From an uncultured Patescibacteria group bacterium (lineage in GTDB: Bacteria; Patescibacteriota; Minisyncoccia; Phycocordibacterales; UBA12088), in assembly GCA_947259245.1 (NCBI GenBank), contig CAMYLP010000003.1:27118-91117 (forward strand): a stretch of DNA of 64,000 bases. Reading direction: 5' to 3'. Of the stretch, positions 7,997 to 57,195 are shown piece after piece (within the stretch, counting starts at the first letter, position 1; the number at the start of each line of letters is the position of its first letter). Made by a program: the position numbers and the translations under genes. The notes beneath the pieces were generated by a model, which was not told the origin of the DNA, ran no database searches, and was given only the letters and a program-made list of their open reading frames with translations.

Positions 7997-10900
7997 ATGT
8001 CGACATTTACGCATCTCCACACACACTCGCACTACTCCCTCTTAGGAGCAGTTCCGAAGATACCGCCGCTCGTTGCACGCGCTAAGGAGTATGGATTCAC
8101 ATCACTGGCTCTTACGGACAATGGAGCTCTGTACGGTGCAGTTGAGTTCTATAAAGCATGTCGGAAGGAAAATATTAAGCCGATCATCGGTGTCGATGCC
8201 TACCTTGCGCCGAGAAGCCGAATCGACATGGAACGAGGCATTGACGATAAGCGAACGCGTCTTGTACTACTTGCTGAGAACAACACCGGTTACGTAAACC
8301 TCATACGACTGGTCACAGCATCGTACATGGAGGGATTCTTTGACAAGCCACGCATGGATCGCGAAGTACTTGAGAAGTGGCACGAGGGCGTCATTGCGAT
8401 ACTACCGTCATTCTCGGGAGAGCATATATCCGCCCTCCGTGGATCTGACATGGCAAAAGCGGTTGCCATTGTACGTTGGTATCAGGACACCTTCGGAAAA
8501 GACAATGTGTTCCTGGAACTCTCCCATCACTCTGAGATAGAGGGTCATGAGTATCTCCAGGAACAAATACAGCAGCTGTCGAGCGAGTCAGGCTCTGAAC
8601 TTGTTGCAGCGCACAACACGTACTACTTACATCCTGAGGACAGACTTGCACGCGAAACGATGCTAAAGATCAGCACCACCGGCTCACTAGAGGGAGAGGA
8701 TTATTATGAAGATGAGGACTTGTCATTTATCACTCCTGAGACTGCTGAAAAACTCTTTGCGAATGAGCCGGAAGCGCTTCGAAACACAGCGGCACTGGCT
8801 GAACGATGCAACGTACAGATAGAATTGGGCCACTGGTACTTCCCCGACTTCAAAATAGAATCAGGCCGTACGGCCGATGAAGAACTTCAGCACCTTGCAC
8901 AACGGGGTCTTGCGTGGAGGGGTATGGCGTATGAAGGAACAGTAAAGAAACGTTTGGATTACGAGTTGGACATCATTAGGTCCAAGGGTTACGCAGGATA
9001 CTTTCTTGCAGTGGGTGATCTACTGCGGGAAGCGCGAGAGAGAGGCATTCTGACGACAATACGTGGTTCTGTTGCAGGTTCTCTTACAACATACGTACTT
9101 GGCATAACGAACGTTGACCCGTTAAAGTTGAACCTGCCGTTCGAACGTTTCTTAAATCCACATCGTCCCTCTGCGCCTGATATTGATATGGACTATGCAG
9201 ATAACAGGCGAGACGAAATGATCGAGTATGCAAAGGATAAGTATGGTCATGACAATGTTGCTCAGATCGGAACGTTTGGCACGATGATGGCACGAGCGGT
9301 GGTACGGGACGTAGCACGAGCACTTGGCTACGCGTATGGTGTGGGCGACAAGATAGCAAAAGTAATACCGTTTGGGTCGCAAGGTTTTCCAATGACCATC
9401 GACCACGCTCTTGAAAGTGAAAAAGAGTTTGCTGCCCTCTACAAGAAGGACAAGGACGTACAGCGCATCATTGACCTTGCGAAGAAGATAGAAGGATGTG
9501 CCCGGCACGTAGGCGTGCACGCGGCTGGCGTCGTAATAGCCCCAAGTCCGCTGGACAACTATGTTCCCGTACAGCCAGACCCAAAAGGTGGCGGTAAACT
9601 GATTACACAGTACGACATGCATAGCGTAGGTGAAGATGGTGTTGGACTTCTCAAATTTGACTTTCTTGGCATTAAAAACCTTTCGATACTAGCTGACGCA
9701 ATCGAGCGTGTGAAGGACCGACATGGTGTCGAGGTAGATATTGAGAACATACCACTCGATGATGCACGGACGTATGACATGCTCGCACAGGGTGAGACGG
9801 GAGGCGTATTCCAGTTGAACGGAGCTGCAATGACACGGTATTTGAAGGAGCTCAGACCAACAAGGATCGAGGACATAAACGCCATGATCGCACTCTACCG
9901 GCCGGGTCCAATGAAAAACATTCCCGAATACATTGCACGTAAACAGGGTCGAAAGCCAGTTCGCTATTTCCATCCGCGGGTCGCCAGCTTTCTCGAGCCC
10001 TCGTACGGTATTCTTGTATATCAAGATGACCTTCTCTTTACTGCGCTAGAACTCGCTGGCTACAACTGGGAAACAGTAGACAAGTTTCGTAAGGCAGTTG
10101 GAAAAAAGATTCCAGCTGAAATGGCGAAACAGCATGTTAAGTTTGTTGAAGGTTGTATGGAGCACAGTGACATGTCAAGGCGTGATGCGGAGGGTGTCTG
10201 GGAGTTGTTTGAGCCGTTTCAGGGGTACGGTTTCAACAAGGCGCATGCGGCTAGTTACGGTAAGGTCGCGTACCAAACTGCGTACATGAAGGCGAACTAT
10301 CCTGTGGAGTATATGGCCGCAATACTTACGGCTGACTCTGGCGATATCGATAAGGTAGCGGAGGCAGTTGTGGAGTGCGAGCGGATGAATATTCGGGTGC
10401 TGAAACCAGATGTCAACCAGAGTTTTGATACATTTACGTGCGTGCAAAAGGACGGGAAGGATGCTATACGATTTGGACTCAGCTCGATCAAGAACTTTGG
10501 TGAAGGTATTGCGCATACGATCATACAGGAGCGTGAACAACACGGACCGTACAACACCATCGATGACCTTCTCATGCGTATTCAAAGCAGGAACCTGAAT
10601 AAAAAATCCCTGGAGTCTCTAATCAAGTGTGGTGCATTGGATTCCTTTAAAGTAAAGCGCGGTAGGTTGCTGAAATACATTGACGAGTTGTTGGCCTTCA
10701 ACAAAGAACAGCATCAGGAAGTGGCACAGGCATCGCTCTTCACCGGCGATGTAGGGGGCAACGTTCTATCAATACCCGAAGCACCGGAAGCGTCACTTCA
10801 GGACATGCTTTCTTGGGAGAAGGAGTTGCTCGGTCTATACGTGTCCGGACATCCTCTCGATGTACACAGGGATCGCCTTGAACGCCTTGGACAAACAATA

Positions 10901-11873: not shown

Positions 11874-12263
11874 ATGCGTCTGAACTGGAGTTCACGACGA
11901 GTGCTCACAGCGTACCTAACGTTGTTTGATGTAACCATCGATCCGATGAAAGATTTCTATTCCGCGATTACTATGCTCATAGAGACGTATCCGGATGAGA
12001 AGCCGCACATCGATGTATTGCTCGAACTACTCATATGCGAAGACGAAAATTGCGAGGGGTGCATAAGTACCCGACGCAGTAGGTTACGTGAAATTACGCC
12101 GGTGCAAATGTTTTTAGCGGGTGCGTGCGAACGTCGCTACAGACATAGGGGTGGCAGCTCGGAGAAGTTGTACGTACAAGAGTGCCTAGAAAAAATTTAC
12201 CGTGTTTTCGATTCCATGGACGAGTTTGATGACACTGATCACGTGGTCTGTAATGACACCTGA
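11874..12263 (+). CDS. hypothetical small Cys-rich protein (~129 aa)
   Basis: ATG 11874 preceded by AAAGGAGGGG SD (11861-11870); CEDENCEGC cluster; upstream part of the 245-aa ORF is antisense to the lipoprotein gene and rejected. Confidence 0.45.
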   Translation: MRLNWSSRRVLTAYLTLFDVTIDPMKDFYSAITMLIETYPDEKPHIDVLLELLICEDENCEGCISTRRSRLREITPVQMFLAGACERRYRHRGGSSEKLYVQECLEKIYRVFDSMDEFDDTDHVVCNDT

Positions 12264-50456: not shown

Positions 50457-51125
50457 CTACCAGGTTACAGGATCTATACCGTTCTGTTTCATGTACTCAT
50501 TCGCCTTGCTGAAATGTCTGCAGCCAAAGAAGCCAGCCCTTGCGCTGTACGGCGAAGGGTGTGCTGCCTCCAACACGAGGTGTTTTCTACGGTCAATGTG
50601 TTCGCCCTTTGCCTTAGCGTAGTTCCCCCAGAGCATGAAAACGAGGTGCTCTCGCTCATGGTTAAGCAGCCGCACAACAGCGTCAGTAAAGGTCTCCCAG
50701 CCCTTACCCTGATGACTTCCGGGCTGGCCCGCGCGCACCGTAAGTGTGGCATTGAGGAGCAAAACGCCCTCATGTGCCCAGTGATCGAGATTGCCGCTCT
50801 GCGGCTGTTCTATACCAAGGTCGTCGTGAAGCTCCTTGTAAATGTTTTGAAGAGAAGGCGGTATGGAGACGCCCTCAGGTACGGAGAAACACAGGCCATG
50901 TGCTTGTCCTCTCCCATGGTATGGGTCTTGTCCGAGTATCACCACCTTTACCTTGTCGAAAGGACATGCGTCAAATGCGTGAAACACATCCTTCGGTGCA
51001 GGATATATCGGTCCTGTCGTGTACTCTTCCCGAACAAACGTGGTGAGGTCACGCCAGTACTCCTTTTCAAACTCGTCTGCAAGTGCGGCTTTCCACGCTG
51101 GTGCCATGCGTACGTCAGTTGCCAT
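50457..51125 (-). CDS. ung: uracil-DNA glycosylase (family 1)
   Basis: GQDPYHGRGQAHGLCFSV motif; start trimmed to MATDV. Confidence 0.9.
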   Translation of the reverse strand: MATDVRMAPAWKAALADEFEKEYWRDLTTFVREEYTTGPIYPAPKDVFHAFDACPFDKVKVVILGQDPYHGRGQAHGLCFSVPEGVSIPPSLQNIYKELHDDLGIEQPQSGNLDHWAHEGVLLLNATLTVRAGQPGSHQGKGWETFTDAVVRLLNHEREHLVFMLWGNYAKAKGEHIDRRKHLVLEAAHPSPYSARAGFFGCRHFSKANEYMKQNGIDPVTW

Positions 51126-51146
51126 ATCAACGTATCGTACCATACA

Positions 51147-51177
51147 CAAAAACCACCAATGGGTGGTTTTTATTTTT
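51147..51177. terminator. bidirectional terminator (AAAAACCACC-aatg-GGTGGTTTTT)
   Basis: 10-bp stem flanked by A/T runs, after HhH gene. Confidence 0.55.
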
Positions 51178-51190
51178 TATGAAGCCCTCC

Positions 51191-51598
51191 TTAGTGTGAC
51201 ACTGCGGGCTTCAGAGTCTTTGCCTCCTTGACCCACTTTTCAACCACGGCTGCACTCGGAGTACGGTCAACGAGCTTTCGTGCTGCATTCTTCTCCTCCA
51301 TCGCTGCTGCAAGGTTTTCTGCATTGCGCGTAGCGAGTTCCTTCACTGTGTCAACTCCGGCCTGCTCGAGAAGGTCAGCGTACTCTTCACCAACACCATT
51401 TATACGCATAAGATCTGCGCGGTTCACCCACTCAAGGAGTCGCTTCTCGGATACTCCCGCTTCAGTGGCAACCCCTTCACGTCCTTTTTTGTCACCACAG
51501 CGACGAAGCAAGTCCTCGGTTGTCTGGATATCCGCGCTACGCAGCTTATCTGCGTACTCTTTACCAATACCCTCTATCTCTTCAATTTTGTACGACAT
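51191..51598 (-). CDS. hypothetical tandem helix-hairpin-helix protein (DUF4332-like)
   Basis: Two IEGIGKEYADKL / INGVGEEYADLL HhH repeats. Confidence 0.5.
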   Translation of the reverse strand: MSYKIEEIEGIGKEYADKLRSADIQTTEDLLRRCGDKKGREGVATEAGVSEKRLLEWVNRADLMRINGVGEEYADLLEQAGVDTVKELATRNAENLAAAMEEKNAARKLVDRTPSAAVVEKWVKEAKTLKPAVSH

Positions 51599-51642: not shown

Positions 51643-52065
51643 CTACTGTACTGTTTTTGGCAGACCTTCACAAGCCACACCGTCCTTGTCCCGGTCGAGC
51701 CCGTGTACGTCGTTCTCTTCGAAGCCGCAAGTCTCGAAGGTTTTCTGCGCCTCCTCCTGCGTTGCGAAGTCGTCACAATTGTAGCTTGCCCTGTCACACA
51801 TAGCGCCAATAATGAGGTTACCCTCCTCGGTGCGTTCGATTTTGCTTTCCTCTAGCGAGCCGGTTTCAATGACCTTGCCGAGGTCATAGTCCGTATTAGC
51901 CATCTCAAGGCCAAGTGCCGCGAGCAAAACAACAGCTATGCCGATCATCCAGAGTCGTGTCTTCTCAAAGAAGAACGCAATGACAGCCACAACAATAAGG
52001 AGAATGATAATGATAGTGAGGCGACTTTTTTTGCTGCGCCGCCACTTCGCTATTTCTTTTTCCAT
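51643..52065 (-). CDS. membrane-anchored Excalibur (extracellular Ca-binding) domain protein
   Basis: N-terminal TM; C-terminal [13 protein letters not shown] Excalibur motif. Confidence 0.65.
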
Positions 52066-52110: not shown

Positions 52111-53394
52111 TCACGCAACATGTGGTGATACTGTTGGGATATCAGCCCAACTACTAGTGTAGCGAGGCGAAAGTGTATTGCTTTTTGGATGCCAGCTTTT
52201 CTCTGTAGTACATCGCAACTCCTCGGCACCAAGCTGTACGGCCCGGTCACCAAAGCGATGTCGTAATGCGTCAAGCGCATGCATAAGTGGCTTCCTCGCC
52301 CCACTCTCCTCGCCAAAGATCGTCCGCGGCATGACGCTCTCCTCTGGAACAATATCCTTCACCATCACACCGGCTTTAGCGTACGGAAAACCTTTTCTAT
52401 ACATGCGCTCGAGTACGCTGAGTGCCGTCTGCACGATGGTGATCGTGTCGTTCGTGTGATGAGTGAGCGTGTCACCATCGTAGGCACTGTAGCGATGTGT
52501 GGTGTGACGAGAGGTACGAATCGTCACATACACCTCGCGTGCCGCGGCACCCTCAACGCGGAGCACCTCCGCCGCCTTGCGCGCGTGGTGTGCTATCGCC
52601 TGCTTGAGACCTGACAGATCGTAAACGGGTCTTCCGAAGGACTGTGAATGAAGGAGTGACTTTCTAAGTGTCGTATCCTCTCCAACAGTAAAACAAGGCG
52701 TACCTCGGAGCTCATAGACGGTGCGCAAACCCCGTACGCTCAGTCGCTTGCGTAGCCACGTATCATCCATGCGGATAAGCTTTCCGGCCGTTGTAACACC
52801 AAGGTCCTTCAACACGGGTCCCAGACGAAATCCAATACCCCACACCTCATCGACCGGGAGCTCCTCAAGTGCAACATTGCGCACGTAGGGCTCAAGAAGA
52901 AGGTTGACCCCACGCCCGCCGTACTTTGGCTTGGCGAAGTGCGTCGCTACTTTTGCAAGGGTCTTTGTATGTGCTACACCCACTGAGACCGGTATGCCGG
53001 TCTCACGTATGACGGCCGTGTGCAGCGCGTGCGCTTGTTGTGCAATATCTCCATCGCGTCCGTCGAGAGCCACAAACGCCTCATCAACCGAGTATGCTTC
53101 TACCGTATCTGCATACCGGCGAAGTACCGACATGATGCGGCGGGACATGTCCCGGTACAGCGCAAAATTGCTAGAGAAAATACTCACGCCGTGCTGATCG
53201 CAACGCTCACGTACTTTAAAGTATGGTTCACCCATAGTGAGTCCAAGTGCCTTCGCCTCTTCAGAACGTGAAATAACACACCCGTCATTGCTCGAAAGCA
53301 CAATGACCGGTTTGTTTCTGAGCTCAGGGCGAAATAACCGCTCGCACGAGACAAAAAAATTATTTGCATCTATCAACACCGTGTATATTGACAT
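52111..53394 (-). CDS. Y-family translesion DNA polymerase (UmuC/DinB-like)
   Basis: IDANNFFVSCERL (Y-family DxD-equivalent start), SRSEEAKALG, little-finger region; 427 aa. Confidence 0.85.
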   Translation of the reverse strand: MSIYTVLIDANNFFVSCERLFRPELRNKPVIVLSSNDGCVISRSEEAKALGLTMGEPYFKVRERCDQHGVSIFSSNFALYRDMSRRIMSVLRRYADTVEAYSVDEAFVALDGRDGDIAQQAHALHTAVIRETGIPVSVGVAHTKTLAKVATHFAKPKYGGRGVNLLLEPYVRNVALEELPVDEVWGIGFRLGPVLKDLGVTTAGKLIRMDDTWLRKRLSVRGLRTVYELRGTPCFTVGEDTTLRKSLLHSQSFGRPVYDLSGLKQAIAHHARKAAEVLRVEGAAAREVYVTIRTSRHTTHRYSAYDGDTLTHHTNDTITIVQTALSVLERMYRKGFPYAKAGVMVKDIVPEESVMPRTIFGEESGARKPLMHALDALRHRFGDRAVQLGAEELRCTTEKSWHPKSNTLSPRYTSSWADIPTVSPHVA

Positions 53395-53440
53395 ATAAGT
53401 ATTAAATGGTATCGTTAAGATCGGAATAAGGAGGTGCGCT

Positions 53441-53626
53441 ATGAGTATTGCAGACTTATTACACCGGAAAGACAGTCAGCATGAAGCCGAGGAAGACATG
53501 CTCGGCGTCGAAGCAAGCGTGGAGATTAAAAACCTGCCGCAAGAGGAGCACCATACCAACGACAGCGACAGTGCGGGGCTGGACGTAGTCGAACATTACA
53601 GGACGGCAGTACAGCCGATCGAATAA
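53441..53626 (+). CDS. hypothetical small acidic protein (61 aa) with perfect Shine-Dalgarno
   Basis: TAAGGAGGT at 53427-53435, 5-nt spacer to ATG; lies between umuD'-like and polY genes on the opposite strand. Confidence 0.4.
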   Translation: MSIADLLHRKDSQHEAEEDMLGVEASVEIKNLPQEEHHTNDSDSAGLDVVEHYRTAVQPIE

Positions 53627-53680
53627 AAAGAACATTATGAGAAGAGAGACCCCAAGCACGCTACTTGGGGTCTTTTGTAC

Positions 53681-54010
53681 TTACATCCTCCGTGCAAGTG
53701 CAATGACCGAACCCCAGTACTCTGCGGCCTCCCCGTCTACCAAGCGTGCCACTACTAACTCCCCTTCCTGCACGAACACCGAAAGCGTGCCCGTGCAAGG
53801 AGGAACAGCCCTGTCCACCACCAAAACATCATCCCTTCGTATGTCGAGCTTGCCACAGACGTGGAGGTCTCCACCCACGCGTACGAAGAAAGTTGAGGTC
53901 GGATGCGCCACAAAGTGCGCGTCAAGTGAGAGAGGGTTCTTGTACTCGTGTTCGTCACCCTCCTCTCCGAGTTCACGTGGTGATGTTCGTATAAAGGAAA
54001 CTGGCTTCAT
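53681..54010 (-). CDS. UmuD'-like S24-fold protein lacking the catalytic Ser/Lys dyad and the N-terminal cleavage arm
   Basis: Aligns to LexA C-domain in same window: VKGESM -> VGGDLH (Ser->Leu), TVKYL -> VVARL (Lys->Ala); 9 nt after preceding gene. Confidence 0.6.
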   Translation of the reverse strand: MKPVSFIRTSPRELGEEGDEHEYKNPLSLDAHFVAHPTSTFFVRVGGDLHVCGKLDIRRDDVLVVDRAVPPCTGTLSVFVQEGELVVARLVDGEAAEYWGSVIALARRM

Positions 54011-54019
54011 AACACAAGC

Positions 54020-55480
54020 TTACTGAGGCATTGAAATGTGAGCGCTCTGCAGAAGTGCCTCGTCTCTGCTGGTCAGTTCGCGTACCGTTACCTTTGGACG
54101 GCGTTTGCCCAGCTCTCGCGTAAGTATCTTGTATGCGTCGTAATCAAAACGAAACTGTGCCGGAATGAATTCCTCCCACTCGGTACCATTGAAATGAAGT
54201 GCGGCGAGCAGTCGCCACTGGTCGACAATGAAGAGCTCTCCCGTACCATCCACACGCCGCTCGTCGATACCCACAGGCCCTGTGTATGGCCACACGTGCA
54301 TACGGTGCGCCTCGAACGCCTCGCGAAAACGTCTGTTGTAATGGCGGTGCTTCTCCTTTCCTATGCACGCACCCCGACACTGCTCTAATTGTTGTGCAAA
54401 ACACGGCGCCTTTGGAGATGATGCTTTTTCTATACCAAGGAGCTGTGGGCAAAGCTCGTACTCCTTTGCAAGCTGACCGAGTACATCACGTGCCTGCTTT
54501 TTTGTTTTGAAGATGGCAGCAATGTTCTTTTCCTCCCCCAACTCTATGGTATCCGCGTGTGAGAGCTCCGTTACATGATACCCTGCGTCGTTTATATCTT
54601 CGCGTACCAGACAGAGTGCGTGCCGCTCACGCGCCCGTACGTTGTAGACAGGCCCTCGGTCCTTGATCAGGTGCGACTCGAGGAGAAGTGCGCCGACCTC
54701 ACCTGCTGTCTCCCTATACTCAATACGCCGTATCTCGGAGAGCATGTCTTTTCCGCGTCCCGAGAGCCCGTCTTTTGCAAAATGTGAGCGGACCCTCGTG
54801 CGTATTTTGCGACTCTTTCCAATATAAAGAAGTTCGTCATCCTTGCCGTGGAAAAAGTAGACACCTGCACCTTCCGGTAGACTCTGCACCATCTCCTCTT
54901 TTACATGCATCGGTAGCCGTCGCACACGTACCTGTTCCTGCATGACCTCGTGCACATGCTCTATACTTAGTTCTTTGTAGGCAACTTGTAAGAACTGCCA
55001 AAGCACCTTTGCGTCATCAAGTGCTCGGTGCCGGTCACCGGGATCGAGGTCATACCGTTTGATGATGCTGTCGAGATTGTGCCGACGCAACTTCGGGTAG
55101 AGCGCCCTAGAGAGTTTTGCGGTGCAGAGGTACGGGTATGAAAAGGTGATGCCAAGGCGTCGGAACTCCTCAGAGAGGAAGCCGTAGTCAAAAGGAGCAT
55201 TGTGTGCAACGAAGAGCGCTCCCTCAAGAAACTCTGCAACCTCAAGCGCCACCTCGTCGAAGGTGGGCGCGCGTACAAGCATCGAGCTGGCAATACCCGT
55301 AAGTGATGTAATAAATGCCGGTACCGGCATGCCGGGGTCAACGAACGTACGGTACTCCCGTACGATCTCACCCCGCTCCACACGCACAAGACCTACTTCC
55401 ATCACCCGATGATGTCGGGGGCTCGTACCCGTCGTCTCAAGGTCTATAAACACCAGTGGTGTTTTATCGTCTACTTGCAT
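54020..55480 (-). CDS. DnaQ-type 3'-5' exonuclease fused to GIY-YIG / UvrC N-terminal-like (Cho-like) nuclease
   Basis: Exo I FIDLETTG, Exo II FVAHNAPFDYGFL, Exo III HRALDDAKV; GVYFFHG..LLYIGKS GIY-YIG; UvrC-like CFAQQLEQCRGAC. Confidence 0.8.
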   Translation of the reverse strand: MQVDDKTPLVFIDLETTGTSPRHHRVMEVGLVRVERGEIVREYRTFVDPGMPVPAFITSLTGIASSMLVRAPTFDEVALEVAEFLEGALFVAHNAPFDYGFLSEEFRRLGITFSYPYLCTAKLSRALYPKLRRHNLDSIIKRYDLDPGDRHRALDDAKVLWQFLQVAYKELSIEHVHEVMQEQVRVRRLPMHVKEEMVQSLPEGAGVYFFHGKDDELLYIGKSRKIRTRVRSHFAKDGLSGRGKDMLSEIRRIEYRETAGEVGALLLESHLIKDRGPVYNVRARERHALCLVREDINDAGYHVTELSHADTIELGEEKNIAAIFKTKKQARDVLGQLAKEYELCPQLLGIEKASSPKAPCFAQQLEQCRGACIGKEKHRHYNRRFREAFEAHRMHVWPYTGPVGIDERRVDGTGELFIVDQWRLLAALHFNGTEWEEFIPAQFRFDYDAYKILTRELGKRRPKVTVRELTSRDEALLQSAHISMPQ

Positions 55481-55495
55481 ACAGGCTCAAAGACA

Positions 55496-55580
55496 TAAAA
55501 ACACACGTGTCTGTGTGAGAGACTAAGACTTGGGCAAACGCCCCGGAGTGGTCTCTCATGCAGACATGTGTGTTTTTGAA
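55496..55580. repeat. 17-bp inverted repeat (AAAAACACACGTGTCTG / CAGACATGTGTGTTTTT) with nested GAGAGAC/GTCTCTC repeat; terminator/attenuator-like, between lexA and exonuclease gene
   Basis: On the minus-strand RNA forms a long stem followed by U5 only ~17 nt before the exonuclease ATG. Confidence 0.6.
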
Positions 55581-55588
55581 ATCTACAT

Positions 55589-56155
55589 TTATGCATATGT
55601 TCTGATAACGCTCCGCACAACACCGCCAACCTCAAGTGACTGCTCGGGATGTAGGTCCGGGTACTCTTCGTTTGCCGCTTCAAGGTACTTACGCCCGCGT
55701 TTCTCACGCAGGTACTTAACCGTCCATTCACCATCAATGCTTGCAACCACGATGTCATTCAATCGTGCGGTCTCTGTGCGCTCTACCAAAAGAAGATCCC
55801 CCTCATAAATACCCGCGTCTATCATAGACTCTCCCTTCACGCGCAATAAATAGAGTTTATCCCGACTCCCTAAGAGGAGCTCGTCCATGGTGACGTGGTC
55901 AAGAGCTATTTCCTCTGCGGGTGTTGGGAACCCCGCTTCGATGTAACCCACCAGTGGCACCTCGTCGCCTAGAGCAAGCGGCACAAGCTTGCCGCGTCCA
56001 TCCTTACGGACAACGCCTGCGTCTATCAGTTTTTCAACCACCTTTGCAACGGCGTTCTTTGAGGCAAAGCCGAAAAGAGCACACATCTCGCTGTAGCCCG
56101 GCATTCGTTTGTGCTTTCGATAAAAAGTCTGCAGCTGTTTCTTATACTGTTCCAT
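55589..56155 (-). CDS. lexA: LexA repressor
   Basis: N-terminal wHTH; VKGESM catalytic Ser and TVKYL Lys; AG cleavage-site context. Confidence 0.9.
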   Translation of the reverse strand: MEQYKKQLQTFYRKHKRMPGYSEMCALFGFASKNAVAKVVEKLIDAGVVRKDGRGKLVPLALGDEVPLVGYIEAGFPTPAEEIALDHVTMDELLLGSRDKLYLLRVKGESMIDAGIYEGDLLLVERTETARLNDIVVASIDGEWTVKYLREKRGRKYLEAANEEYPDLHPEQSLEVGGVVRSVIRTYA

Positions 56156-56181: not shown

Positions 56182-56448
56182 CTACGCCACACCAAAGCCG
56201 AGTACACGGCTCATCACGCCGCGACTGAGACTGCGGTGCACGGGACTCTTCACGCGCCGCAGGGTCTTGGCGCGCTTAGGGACCAGTATTGTATCTTCCT
56301 CGTTCATACTTCGGAGTGTCGCGAGAAGCTCTTTATGGTGGCGAGCTTCCTTCTGGAAGGACTGTCCCCTGATGATCTTGCGGTCAATGCGGTCGTTTAT
56401 CTTTTCGAGTTCCTTGTGGATCTCTTTAGAAAGTGTGCTTTTGCTCAT
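56182..56448 (-). CDS. hypothetical basic 88-aa protein, first gene of the LexA-box-controlled transcript
   Basis: ATG 38 nt downstream of LexA box/promoter; no TM; helical, K/R-rich. Confidence 0.45.
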   Translation of the reverse strand: MSKSTLSKEIHKELEKINDRIDRKIIRGQSFQKEARHHKELLATLRSMNEEDTILVPKRAKTLRRVKSPVHRSLSRGVMSRVLGFGVA

Positions 56449-56477: not shown

Positions 56478-56506
56478 ATTGTAGGTGAACGTTCGTTCAC
56501 CGTCAA
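56478..56506 (-). promoter_or_regulatory. LexA-repressed promoter: TTGACG-17-TACAAT with Cheo-type LexA box GTGAAC-gaac-GTTCAC filling the spacer
   Basis: rc of cgtcaa 56501-06 (-35), attgta 56478-83 (-10); GAAC-N4-GTTC palindrome 56485-56500. Confidence 0.6.
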
Positions 56507-56607
56507 GCACAGGTGTCTGTATATGATGTTTATACGTACGTTACTGTAATTCTGTCAAACTTCCCGCCCCGGGTTCGTTCGCTCGATACATCATCGTTTG
56601 TGTTACT

Positions 56608-57195
56608 ATGTGTGACATGAAAAAGTCAACGCTGACAACGGCACTTATCCTATCACTGACGCTCAACGTGCTGTTGTATCATCAGCTTTCACAGAAGGAC
56701 TCGCCTATCAACGACCCCGGCTCGAATGCACCGACGAAGGTAATAACGGAGGTAGAACCACCTACCCTTCCACGGTCAGGAAGCTATCCTTTCATTCGGG
56801 TAGTAGACGGGGATACCATAACTGTTGGTATCGAAGGTCGCACGGAGTTTGTTCGTCTTATCGGCATCGACTCTCCCGAGCCGAATGACCCGGGTGGTGC
56901 CGAATGTTATGCGAATGAGGCAACGAACCACATGCGCGAGCTTACCCGTACCGGCACTGTTGCACTCTACTTCGATGAATCACAAGGTACCCGTGATACA
57001 TATGGACGACTGCTCGCGTACGTTGAACTGCCTGATGGTACTGATATTGGCGCGGCAATGGTGCGGGATGGATATGCACGAGAGTACACGTACGATGAGC
57101 GATACGAGCGCGCAAACGTCTACCGTGCTGCAGAGTTGGAAGCGATCGAGGCAGAACGTGGACTGTGGGCGCCATCTGCGTGCAACACAAACTAG
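56608..57195 (+). CDS. membrane-anchored staphylococcal-nuclease-like (thermonuclease) protein
   Basis: N-terminal TM; VVDGDTITV..RLIGIDSPE..YGRLLAYV SNase motifs. Confidence 0.8.
   Translation: MCDMKKSTLTTALILSLTLNVLLYHQLSQKDSPINDPGSNAPTKVITEVEPPTLPRSGSYPFIRVVDGDTITVGIEGRTEFVRLIGIDSPEPNDPGGAECYANEATNHMRELTRTGTVALYFDESQGTRDTYGRLLAYVELPDGTDIGAAMVRDGYAREYTYDERYERANVYRAAELEAIEAERGLWAPSACNTN

What the first reader, a model, noticed from the sequence alone, without database searches (positions are those of the whole stretch)
54020..55480. DnaQ 3'-5' exonuclease fused to a Cho-like GIY-YIG nuclease, under the lexA terminator
The three Exo motifs of epsilon-type proofreading exonucleases are followed by a GIY-YIG catalytic core. 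After that comes the UvrC-type Cys motif (CxxxxxxxCxxxC). This matches the rare DnaQ-Cho fusion type seen in actinobacterial SOS regulons. Here it is the first gene after lexA and sits 9 nt upstream of the UmuD'-like gene. Translational coupling to the mutagenesis proteins suggests a lesion-processing role rather than canonical nucleotide excision repair.
Basis: partly seen in the sequence, partly recalled or inferred. Interest (0 to 1): 0.5.

Follow-up and report, generated by a model that had tools for sequence, protein, structure and literature searches.

The report
SOS-operon exonuclease–Cho repair nuclease fusion
The gene encodes a DNA-repair nuclease (Cho) joined to a proofreading-type exonuclease, a domain combination already described, sitting in the damage-response (lexA) operon of an uncultured Parcubacteria-type bacterium; it is a well-supported but fairly ordinary find.

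Summary
Window 54020-55480 (-) is an intact 486-aa ORF. It has a DEDDh exonuclease domain (RNase_T, E 1.4e-36), a GIY-YIG nuclease domain, a four-cysteine UvrC-type motif, and the C-terminal domain specific to Cho. It is 36% identical to E. coli Cho over Cho residues 13-276 of 295. All catalytic residues and all four cysteines are invariant or nearly so in 64 homologues.

The interpretation needs two corrections. First, this is the 'Cho+Exo' subtype, not the actinobacterial Rv2191 type, which carries a UvrB-binding domain instead. Second, it is not rare: 110 of the 150 closest Cho-family cluster representatives carry the N-terminal extension.

The stable genomic partner is lexA, not umuDC. A promoter with an embedded palindrome, TTGACG-G-GTGAAC-N4-GTTCAC-C-TACAAT, precedes the 88aa-lexA-exoCho operon in the window and in eight related contigs, including Kaiserbacteria and Adlerbacteria. 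lexA is adjacent in 9 of 12 contexts and umuC in 5.

The 'lexA terminator' is a window-specific 81-nt hairpin ending 16 nt before the start codon.

Most likely function (inferred, not shown): a LexA-controlled 3' incision next to a lesion, followed by 3'-5' resection through it. New member of a known kind; modest interest.

The parts
56478..56506 (-). Promoter with embedded LexA-type operator: -35 TTGACG, then G, then GTGAAC-GAAC-GTTCAC (56485-56500), then C, then -10 TACAAT. It lies upstream of the 88-aa ORF that opens the operon.
   Evidence: Best promoter match in the region, 10 of 12. It is the only perfect GTGAAC-N4-GTTCAC in 64 kb. The same arrangement sits at the same place in L003, L005, L007, L008, L010 and L019, and with one mismatch in L001/L009. 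The arms are constant and the N4 spacer varies. It is the only site in each locus.
56182..56448 (-). 88-aa ORF of unknown function, the first gene of the operon.
   Evidence: Conserved at 51-67% identity directly upstream of lexA in L001, L003, L005, L007, L008, L009 and L010. No Pfam family above cut-off. Only 9 database homologues.
55589..56155 (-). LexA-like repressor, 188 aa: an N-terminal winged-helix region plus an S24 self-cleaving domain.
   Evidence: Peptidase_S24, E 4.3e-26. TIGR00498 lexA scores 108.8 bits, just under the 110.95 cut-off, covering residues 13-187. An Ala-Gly site (EAG|FPTPA), a Ser in GESM and a Lys in TVKYL align with the UmuD cleavage site and catalytic dyad.
55497..55577 (.). 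81-nt palindromic hairpin between lexA and the fusion gene: 27-nt arms, 27-nt loop, A5 before and T5 after.
   Evidence: Strongest inverted repeat in the window. RNA fold -50 kcal/mol, z -5.9. Absent from relatives, whose lexA-cho gaps are 3-58 nt. Only a sub-threshold, spurious Rfam hit.
54020..55480 (-). The finding: the Exo-Cho fusion gene, 486 aa.
54932..55480 (-). DEDDh (epsilon/PolC-type) 3'-5' exonuclease domain, residues 1-183.
54626..54901 (-). GIY-YIG nuclease domain, residues 194-285.
54365..54451 (-). Four-cysteine UvrC/Cho motif, C344...C372, a probable Fe-S cluster site.
   Evidence: All four Cys are invariant in 64 homologues. They align with the four Cys of E. coli Cho. Motif consensus and cluster chemistry are from PMC10085695.
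54038..54349 (-). Cho-specific C-terminal domain, residues ~378-481.
   Evidence: Aligned with E. coli Cho to residue 276 of 295. PRK10545 is covered to position 283 of 289. PF27115 Cho_C is precomputed on the 77%-identical orthologue P0001.
53681..54010 (-). UmuD'-like protein, 109 aa, 9 nt downstream. It has no cleavable N-terminal arm and no Ser/Lys dyad.
   Evidence: Peptidase_S24, 24.7 bits against a 23.3 cut-off. PRK10276, E 2.3e-11, below cut-off. Alignment with E. coli UmuD shows S60 replaced by Leu and K97 by Ala, with the dyad also lost in four relatives.
53647..53673 (-). GC-rich hairpin (AGACCCCAAG-7nt-CTTGGGGTCT) just after the UmuD'-like stop codon; the probable end of the transcription unit.
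   Evidence: Read from the sequence. Similar hairpins follow the cho stop in L009 and L010.
52111..53394 (-). UmuC-type Y-family polymerase, 427 aa. It is separated from the UmuD'-like gene by 286 nt.
   Evidence: IMS, IMS_C and DUF4113. PRK03609 UmuC, E 4.7e-100, below cut-off. No second LexA box lies upstream of it.

Best explanation
The gene encodes a 'Cho+Exo' nuclease. This is an orthologue of the alternative nucleotide-excision-repair endonuclease Cho, with an epsilon/PolC-type 3'-5' exonuclease fused to its N terminus. It belongs to a Parcubacteria (Kaiserbacteria-like) genome.

It is transcribed as part of the autoregulated lexA operon: 88-aa ORF, lexA, exo-cho, UmuD'-like. The promoter's spacer is a GTGAAC-N4-GTTCAC LexA-type operator, so the protein would be made when DNA damage triggers LexA self-cleavage. 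The hairpin between lexA and exo-cho probably lowers read-through rather than defining a separate unit.

Proposed mechanism, by homology:
1. The Cho moiety is recruited to a lesion-bound UvrB complex.
2. Its GIY-YIG site nicks the damaged strand some nucleotides 3' of the lesion.
3. The tethered exonuclease digests that strand 3'-5' from the nick, back through the lesion.
4. This leaves a 3'-OH primer for gap filling without needing UvrC's 5' cut. In this sub-lineage the filling enzyme is possibly the UmuD'-like/UmuC polymerase encoded next door.

Shown here: the domain identities, intact active sites, operon position and the conserved operator.
Inferred: LexA control, dependence on UvrA and UvrB, the position of the cut, resection through the lesion, and which polymerase fills the gap.
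For: **Domain identity and intact catalytic residues**
- Profile hits and matches to solved structures.
- Invariant residues in 64 homologues.
- 36% identity to E. coli Cho, including its C-terminal domain, E 5e-50.
- A confident model whose two nuclease domains superpose on epsilon and on the UvrC N-terminal domain.

**Regulation**
- A unique perfect palindrome lies between the -35 and -10 hexamers.
- The same promoter-operator occurs in eight related contigs. Their fusion proteins are 43-77% identical to the window's. The arms are fixed and the spacer varies.
- LexA has a cleavage site and a catalytic dyad.
- lexA is adjacent to the fusion gene in 9 of 12 independent contexts. Eight are co-directional and one is divergent, with its own palindrome.
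- Only 16 nt separate the hairpin from the ATG, so transcription must come through the hairpin.

**Mechanism precedent**
- E. coli Cho makes only the 3' incision, at the ninth phosphodiester bond (PMC10085695; PMC1564403).
- Resection through the lesion by the fused exonuclease was proposed for such fusions (Van Houten et al. 2002, as cited in PMC1564403).
Against: - No uvrA, uvrB or uvrC lies in the 64-kb window. I could not examine the rest of the genome, so the UvrAB partnership is untested.
- No fusion of this kind has been characterised biochemically in any paper I could find.
- The hairpin with its T-run could terminate most transcripts.
- NCBIfam scores are below the equivalog cut-offs for Cho: 199 against 367 bits.
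- Three of the 12 contexts have no lexA nearby.
Confidence: 0.6

Rival explanations
1. Dedicated accessory of the neighbouring UmuD'-like/UmuC polymerase. The nuclease creates or trims the primer end for translesion synthesis, or the exonuclease domain proofreads for the Y-family polymerase in trans. In this reading the enzyme belongs to a mutagenesis module, not to excision repair. This is.
For: There is a 9-nt gap to the UmuD'-like gene. Tight cho-umuD' spacing of 1-15 nt occurs in L003, L007 and L008. umuC lies downstream in 5 of 12 contexts.
Against: - umuD'/umuC are missing next to the orthologue in L001/L009, L010, L013 and L019, although lexA linkage persists.
- In the window and L007, umuC is cut off from the unit by a hairpin and about 290 nt.
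Confidence: 0.15
2. A UvrAB-independent, structure-specific damage nuclease. It would process, for example, interstrand or DNA-protein cross-links, blocked 3' ends or stalled forks, using the nick-plus-resection combination on its own.
For: No uvr genes are seen in the window. E. coli Cho contributes to cross-link repair (PMC10085695). L012 has UvrD-like and PD-(D/E)XK (AddAB-like) genes downstream.
Against: A 64-kb window cannot show that uvrAB are absent. Every characterised Cho or UvrC GIY-YIG domain acts on UvrB-DNA complexes (established knowledge; PMC10085695).
Confidence: 0.15
3. A replicative proofreading subunit or PolC fragment, as database names suggest ('DNA polymerase III subunit epsilon', 'polC').
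For: Names given by sources. Strong similarity of the first 180 residues to the PolC and epsilon exonuclease domains.
Against: Some 300 further residues form a complete Cho. There is no polymerase domain. The gene sits in the lexA operon behind a LexA-type operator.
Confidence: 0.03
4. A selfish GIY-YIG homing endonuclease or part of a mobile element.
For: GIY-YIG domains are common in homing endonucleases (PMC1564403).
Against: Chromosomal synteny is stable across relatives from 47 to 77% identity: SNase, 88aa, lexA, cho, ung, grpE-dnaK-dnaJ. No flanking repeats or integrase were seen. The UvrC-type Cys motif and the Cho C-terminal domain are present.
Confidence: 0.02

Closest known systems
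E. coli excinuclease Cho (YdjQ, b1741)
   Same: GIY-YIG domain, four-Cys motif and Cho-specific C-terminal domain, at 36% identity over Cho residues 13-276. Both are associated with LexA control; this is known for E. coli cho from my own knowledge, and sequence-level evidence is given here.
   Different: E. coli Cho has no N-terminal exonuclease domain and is a solitary gene between nadE and ves. The window protein has 180 extra N-terminal residues and is encoded inside the lexA operon.
'Cho+Exo' subfamily of Dunin-Horkawicz et al. 2006 (ExoIII + GIY-YIG + C4 + Cho-CTD)
   Same: Identical domain order.
   Different: In 2006 the subfamily was known only from a few Betaproteobacteria (18 members). 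Here it is in Parcubacteria, where it is abundant, and linked to lexA.
Actinobacterial 'Cho-like+Exo' proteins (M. tuberculosis Rv2191; NCBIfam PRK07883 'DEDD exonuclease domain-containing protein')
   Same: N-terminal DEDDh exonuclease, GIY-YIG domain and Cys motif. This is the best NCBIfam hit, 9e-83 over residues 2-377.
   Different: The actinobacterial proteins are longer (563-642-residue models) and carry a UvrC-type UvrB-binding region after the Cys motif (PMC1564403; PMC11348249). The window protein has the Cho C-terminal domain instead, and scores far below the family cut-offs.
UvrC
   Same: The GIY-YIG domain and Cys-rich motif are homologous (TIGR00194, E 7.7e-26, residues 196-386; E. 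coli UvrC residues 11-179).
   Different: There is no UvrB-binding coiled coil, no RNase H/EndoV-like 5'-incision domain and no (HhH)2.
Epsilon / PolC / DinG N-terminal DEDDh exonucleases
   Same: The fold and all five catalytic residues.
   Different: Here the domain is fused to an endonuclease rather than to, or partnered with, a polymerase or helicase.

Membership tests
DEDDh 3'-5' exonucleases (Pfam RNase_T, DnaQ/epsilon-like) | Profile match above the curated cut-off | tested here: met
   127 bits against a cut-off of 24, residues 10-160. TIGR00573 dnaq scores 111.3 against 71.5.
DEDDh 3'-5' exonucleases (Pfam RNase_T, DnaQ/epsilon-like) | Exo I DxE, Exo II D and Exo III Hx4D catalytic residues | tested here: met
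   D13, E15, D98, H151 and D156 are invariant in 64 homologues and align with the PolC exonuclease motifs.
DEDDh 3'-5' exonucleases (Pfam RNase_T, DnaQ/epsilon-like) | RNase H-like exonuclease fold | tested here: met
DEDDh 3'-5' exonucleases (Pfam RNase_T, DnaQ/epsilon-like) | 3'-5' exonuclease activity on DNA | not testable with these tools
   Needs an enzyme assay.
Excinuclease Cho | GIY-YIG domain with the catalytic Tyr, Tyr, Arg, Glu and Asn | tested here: met
Excinuclease Cho | Four-Cys motif after the GIY-YIG domain | tested here: met
   C344, C360, C368 and C372 are invariant and align with the four Cys of E. coli Cho.
Excinuclease Cho | Cho-specific C-terminal domain in place of UvrC's UvrB-binding, EndoV-like and HhH modules | tested here: met
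   BLASTP alignment with E. coli Cho runs to Cho residue 276 of 295. PRK10545 is covered over positions 13-283 of 289. PF27115 Cho_C is recorded on close orthologues. No UVR, UvrC RNase H or HhH hits. My Pfam copy lacks PF27115, so the window protein was not scored against it directly.
Excinuclease Cho | NCBIfam equivalog score cut-off (NF007833) | tested here: not met
   199.3 bits against a cut-off of 367. The protein is a divergent, fused relative, not an equivalog by NCBI's threshold.
Excinuclease Cho | LexA (SOS) control | tested here: inconclusive
   A conserved LexA-type palindrome lies in the operon promoter. Neither binding nor induction was measured, and a hairpin lies between lexA and the gene.
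Excinuclease Cho | UvrA/UvrB-dependent 3' incision | not testable with these tools
   No uvrA or uvrB in the window.
'Cho+Exo' subfamily (PMC1564403) | N-terminal ExoIII domain, GIY-YIG, C4 and Cho-CTD, in that order | tested here: met
   against the definition quoted.
Actinobacterial 'Cho-like+Exo' (Rv2191 / PRK07883) | UvrC-type UvrB-binding domain after the Cys motif | tested here: not met
   No UVR-domain hit. The PRK07883 models align only to residue ~377-390, with scores of 144-278 bits against cut-offs of 454-1038.
UvrC | C-terminal RNase H/EndoV-like 5'-incision domain and (HhH)2 | tested here: not met
   TIGR00194 matches model positions 3-182 of 574 only, at 90.9 bits against 285. 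E. coli UvrC aligns over residues 11-179 only.

The most novel reading that the evidence does not exclude
In this Parcubacteria lineage the Exo-Cho fusion would be the core effector of a minimal SOS module (88-aa protein, LexA, Exo-Cho). It would perform a complete 'one-cut' excision repair that replaces UvrC. Where the catalytically dead, pre-truncated UmuD'-like protein and UmuC are attached, the resected gap would be filled by an error-prone polymerase. That would make it a hard-wired mutagenic excision-repair cassette in a reduced genome.
Probability: 0.15. Interest if true: 0.6.

Novelty: new member of a known kind. Interest (0 to 1): 0.3.

Why it matters
No Exo-Cho fusion has been characterised biochemically in any paper I could find. 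The idea that a tethered exonuclease can replace the 5' incision of excision repair dates from 2002 and, as far as I could find, remains untested.

The Parcubacteria proteins are compact (about 480 aa), abundant and confidently modelled. They sit in a very small, clearly delimited LexA operon. That makes them convenient material for testing the idea, and for describing what a minimal SOS response looks like in bacteria with reduced genomes.

As a genome annotation matter, the result corrects database names such as 'polC' and 'DNA polymerase III subunit epsilon' for this family.

Tried and rejected
The genome-contig scan gave only two loci. Synteny therefore rests on 12 contexts obtained through exact-protein look-ups. 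The window's own protein is not on record.
2. tblastn with E. coli UvrA, UvrB and UvrC found no uvr genes in the window. It hit only the fusion gene itself (UvrC N-terminus), and in the related loci also their ABC transporters (UvrA). This says little about the whole genome.
3. Literature:
   - The Patescibacteria SOS-regulon paper (Sanchez-Osuna et al. 2017, PMID 28618189) is not held. I could not check whether the lexA-exo-cho operon is already described there.
   - Moolenaar 2002 and Perera 2016 are not held.
   - One search was swamped by 'cholerae'.
   - A search for uvr genes in Parcubacteria gave nothing useful.
4. Rfam on the hairpin gave only a sub-threshold microRNA-precursor hit, which I take as spurious. 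No similar hairpin occurs elsewhere in the window.
5. The two small ORFs in the umuD'-umuC spacer (61 aa on the + strand, 66 aa on the - strand) have no tblastn match in relatives. I do not treat the - strand ORF as a gene.
6. The one-mismatch operator-like site at 11880-11895 lies inside a 245-aa ORF and is within chance expectation. Rejected.
Full report
**1. The observation**

The minus strand of 54020-55480 carries an intact 486-aa ORF with an ATG start.

Pfam gives RNase_T over residues 10-160 (E 1.4e-36) and GIY-YIG over residues 206-279 (E 7.8e-8). Both are above the curated cut-offs.

NCBIfam gives two informative partial matches:
- The actinobacterial 'DEDD exonuclease domain-containing protein' models (PRK07883) match only residues 2 to ~380.
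- Excinuclease Cho (PRK10545) matches residues 182-464, covering model positions 13-283 of 289.

Against solved structures, the first 165 residues align with PolC and epsilon exonuclease domains, with the DxE, HNAxFD and HRALDD motifs in register. Residues 194-285 align with UvrC N-terminal domains.

In an alignment of 64 homologues that are 40-76% identical to the window protein:
- The five DEDDh residues (D13, E15, D98, H151, D156) are invariant.
- The GIY-YIG residues (Y208, Y219, R229, E268, N280) are invariant or conserved in at least 90% of sequences.
- The four cysteines (C344, C360, C368, C372) are invariant.

The cysteine pattern is C-x15-C-x3-Q-x3-C-x3-C. It fits the published UvrC motif CX6-14CX3H/QX3CX3C, apart from a first spacer one residue longer. 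That motif binds an Fe-S cluster in UvrC (PMC10085695).

**2. Which kind of fusion it is**

A direct BLASTP against E. coli Cho, fetched from NC_000913.3, gives 36% identity over residues 182-457. This corresponds to Cho residues 13-276 of 295, with E 5e-50. [quoted passage not shown]

Close orthologues carry precomputed hits to two recent Pfam families, UvrC_M (PF27096) and Cho_C (PF27115).

There is no UVR (UvrB-binding), UvrC RNase H or HhH hit. E. coli UvrC aligns only over its residues 11-179.

Dunin-Horkawicz et al. 2006 distinguish two fusion types (PMC1564403):
- 'Cho+Exo' has the order ExoIII, GIY-YIG, C4, Cho-CTD. In 2006 it was known from 18 proteins in a few Betaproteobacteria.
- The actinobacterial 'Cho-like+Exo' has the order ExoIII, GIY-YIG, C4, UvrB-binding domain.

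It is also not rare. More than 1800 homologues scored E <= 1e-5 among the 8000 candidates examined. Most are about 480 aa. Where named, they come from Parcubacteria, Patescibacteria, Adlerbacteria or Bacteroidota, and are mislabelled 'polC' or 'DNA polymerase III subunit epsilon'.

Searching 1.84 billion cluster representatives with the Cho part alone gave 376 clusters at E <= 1e-30. Of the best 150, 110 are 444-524 aa with the match beginning around residue 180, which means they are fused (my count from the table).

**3. Genomic setting**

Gene order on the minus strand of the window:

| Feature | Coordinates |
|---|---|
| 88-aa ORF | 56182-56448 |
| LexA-like repressor | 55589-56155 |
| 108-nt gap | 55481-55588 |
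| Exo-Cho | 54020-55480 |
| 9-nt gap | 54011-54019 |
| UmuD'-like, 109 aa | 53681-54010 |
| Hairpin | 53647-53673 |
| 286-nt spacer | 53395-53680 |
| UmuC | 52111-53394 |
| Excalibur-domain protein | 51643-52065 |
| DUF4332 protein | 51191-51598 |
| Uracil-DNA glycosylase | 50457-51149 |

The nearest named relative is a Candidatus Kaiserbacteria MAG (L001). Its fusion protein is 47% identical and its LexA 76% identical to the window's. It belongs to the Parcubacteria group of the Patescibacteria.

Contexts of twelve non-redundant homologues were compared:
- **L003, L005, L007, L008** (63-77% identity): the full row 88aa-lexA-exo-cho-umuD'-like-umuC.
- **L001/L009 and L010** (47%): 88aa-lexA-exo-cho, followed directly by a terminator, ung and grpE-dnaK-dnaJ, with no umuDC.
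- **L019** (Adlerbacteria, 43%): lexA-exo-cho-SET.
- **L013** (44%): a 256-aa lexA transcribed divergently from exo-cho across 42 nt containing the palindrome TGTAC-GTA-GTACA.
- **L011, L012, L020**: no lexA nearby.

In total, lexA is adjacent in 9 of 12 contexts and umuC in 5 of 12. The conserved partner is lexA, and umuD'C is variable cargo.

**4. Regulation**

Upstream of the 88-aa ORF lies the best sigma-70-like promoter of the region, TTGACG-17-TACAAT. Its spacer is the palindrome GTGAAC-GAAC-GTTCAC (56485-56500).

This palindrome is of the Gram-positive LexA-box type, GAAC-N4-GTTC (my own knowledge). It is the only perfect copy in 64 kb.

The same promoter-operator sits at the same place in L003, L005, L007, L008, L010 and L019, and with one mismatch in L001/L009. 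The arms are fixed and the N4 differs (GAAC, ACTC, AATC, TTTG). It is the only such site in each 10-17-kb locus.

The LexA-like protein has an Ala-Gly site, a Ser and a Lys aligned with those of UmuD.

This is good sequence-level evidence for an autoregulated, damage-inducible operon. Neither binding nor induction has been shown.

**5. The 'lexA terminator'**

Between lexA and exo-cho lies an 81-nt hairpin (55497-55577). It has 27-nt arms that are 89% complementary, and it is flanked by A5 and T5. It is the strongest inverted repeat in the window. It folds at -50 kcal/mol with z = -5.9.

Relatives have only 3-58 nt at this position and no comparable structure. The hairpin is therefore a recent insertion in this genome.

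It ends 16 nt before the ATG. Any transcript of exo-cho must start upstream of it or within it. I read it as an attenuator or stabiliser within the operon, not as a boundary that isolates the gene. This was not tested.

**6. Most likely mechanism**

By homology with E. coli Cho, the GIY-YIG site would make only a 3' incision. In E. coli this cut is at the ninth phosphodiester bond from the lesion (PMC10085695; PMC1564403). That it acts on UvrB-lesion complexes is established knowledge.

The fused exonuclease would then degrade the nicked strand 3'-5' through the lesion and leave a primer for repair synthesis. This was proposed for such fusions by Van Houten et al. 2002, as cited in PMC1564403.

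I found no paper that characterises a fusion of this kind. A 2024 study of mycobacterial DnaQ mentions Rv2191 only as a hypothetical protein (PMC11348249).

I give about 0.6 to this explanation as a whole. The identity and operon membership are near certain. The UvrAB dependence and the resection step are inferred.

Rival explanations, scored in their own section:
- A dedicated partner of UmuD'C (0.15). It is weakened by the loss of umuDC in half of the lexA-linked contexts.
- A UvrAB-independent lesion or cross-link nuclease (0.15).
- A replicative proofreader (0.03).
- A mobile GIY-YIG element (0.02).

**7. Novelty and score**

The domain architecture has been published since 2002-2006 and now has dedicated Pfam families. 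LexA control of cho is known from E. coli (my own knowledge).

What may be new is the tight, conserved embedding of the Cho+Exo gene in the lexA operon of Parcubacteria. I could not read the one paper that may already describe it (Sanchez-Osuna et al. 2017).

I rate the finding as a new member of a known kind, with interest 0.3.

Noticed in passing
window 53681-54010 (-): The UmuD'-like protein lacks both residues of the self-cleavage dyad: UmuD S60 is replaced by Leu and K97 by Ala. It also starts roughly where processed UmuD' starts and has a shortened C-terminal half. Four relatives have lost the dyad too. It looks like a constitutively 'activated', non-cleavable UmuD', comparable in idea to phage P1 HumD, whose NCBIfam model it weakly matches.
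   Followed up: partly
window 56182-56448 (-): An 88-aa ORF is the first gene of the lexA operon. It is conserved (51-67% identity) directly upstream of lexA in seven related loci, but has no Pfam family above cut-off and only 9 database homologues. Its function is unknown. Small SOS-induced proteins encoded next to lexA in other bacteria are often cell-division inhibitors (my own knowledge, not tested).
   Followed up: partly
window 55497-55577: An 81-nt near-perfect palindrome rich in CACA/TGTG and ACGTGT has been inserted between lexA and exo-cho. It is unique in the window and absent from relatives. Its origin is unexplained; it could be a miniature mobile element or a newly formed terminator.
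   Followed up: partly
window 53441-53626 (+); L007 9845-10042 (-); L009 9493-9660 (-); L010 about 9456-9797 (-): A small acidic ORF (55-65 aa) with a strong GGAGG-type ribosome-binding site lies convergent to the end of the lexA-cho unit in several genomes. BLAST finds no similarity, but the C-termini share a pattern: EHYRTAVQP, ELYRSATDP, ERFRRTADDP, NRFRQVADE.
   Followed up: partly
window 56540-56558; same position in L003, L009, L010: A second conserved element, TTGAC(A/G)GAATTAC(A/T)GTA, lies about 40-55 nt upstream of the SOS promoter. It sits in the intergenic region shared with the divergent SNase gene. It has no conserved -10 partner, so it may be a binding site rather than a promoter.
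   Followed up: no
window 56608-57195 (+): A secreted staphylococcal-nuclease homologue (SNase, E 1.2e-19) is transcribed divergently from the lexA operon. It keeps this position in L003, L007, L008, L009 and L010.
   Followed up: no
window 52111-53394 (-) and spacer 53395-53680: umuC is separated from the UmuD'-like gene by a hairpin and 286 nt, with no LexA box of its own. In L003 the two genes are 16 nt apart. How umuC is transcribed in this genome is unclear.
   Followed up: partly
window 55589-56155 (-): The LexA-like protein is short (188 aa). It scores almost equally on the LexA model (108.8 bits, just under cut-off) and the UmuD model (104.1 bits), and its cleavage-site region EAGFPTPA resembles UmuD's QCGFPSPA.
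   Followed up: no
L013 7959-8000: In a more distant Patescibacteria genome, a 256-aa LexA and the Exo-Cho gene are divergent across only 42 nt containing the palindrome TGTAC-GTA-GTACA. This may be a different LexA box.
   Followed up: no
window 50457-51149 (-), 51191-51598 (-), 51643-52065 (-): A uracil-DNA glycosylase lies downstream. In relatives it follows umuC or cho directly (L003, L009, L010). In the window and L007 it is displaced by an Excalibur-domain membrane protein and a DUF4332/HhH protein.
   Followed up: no
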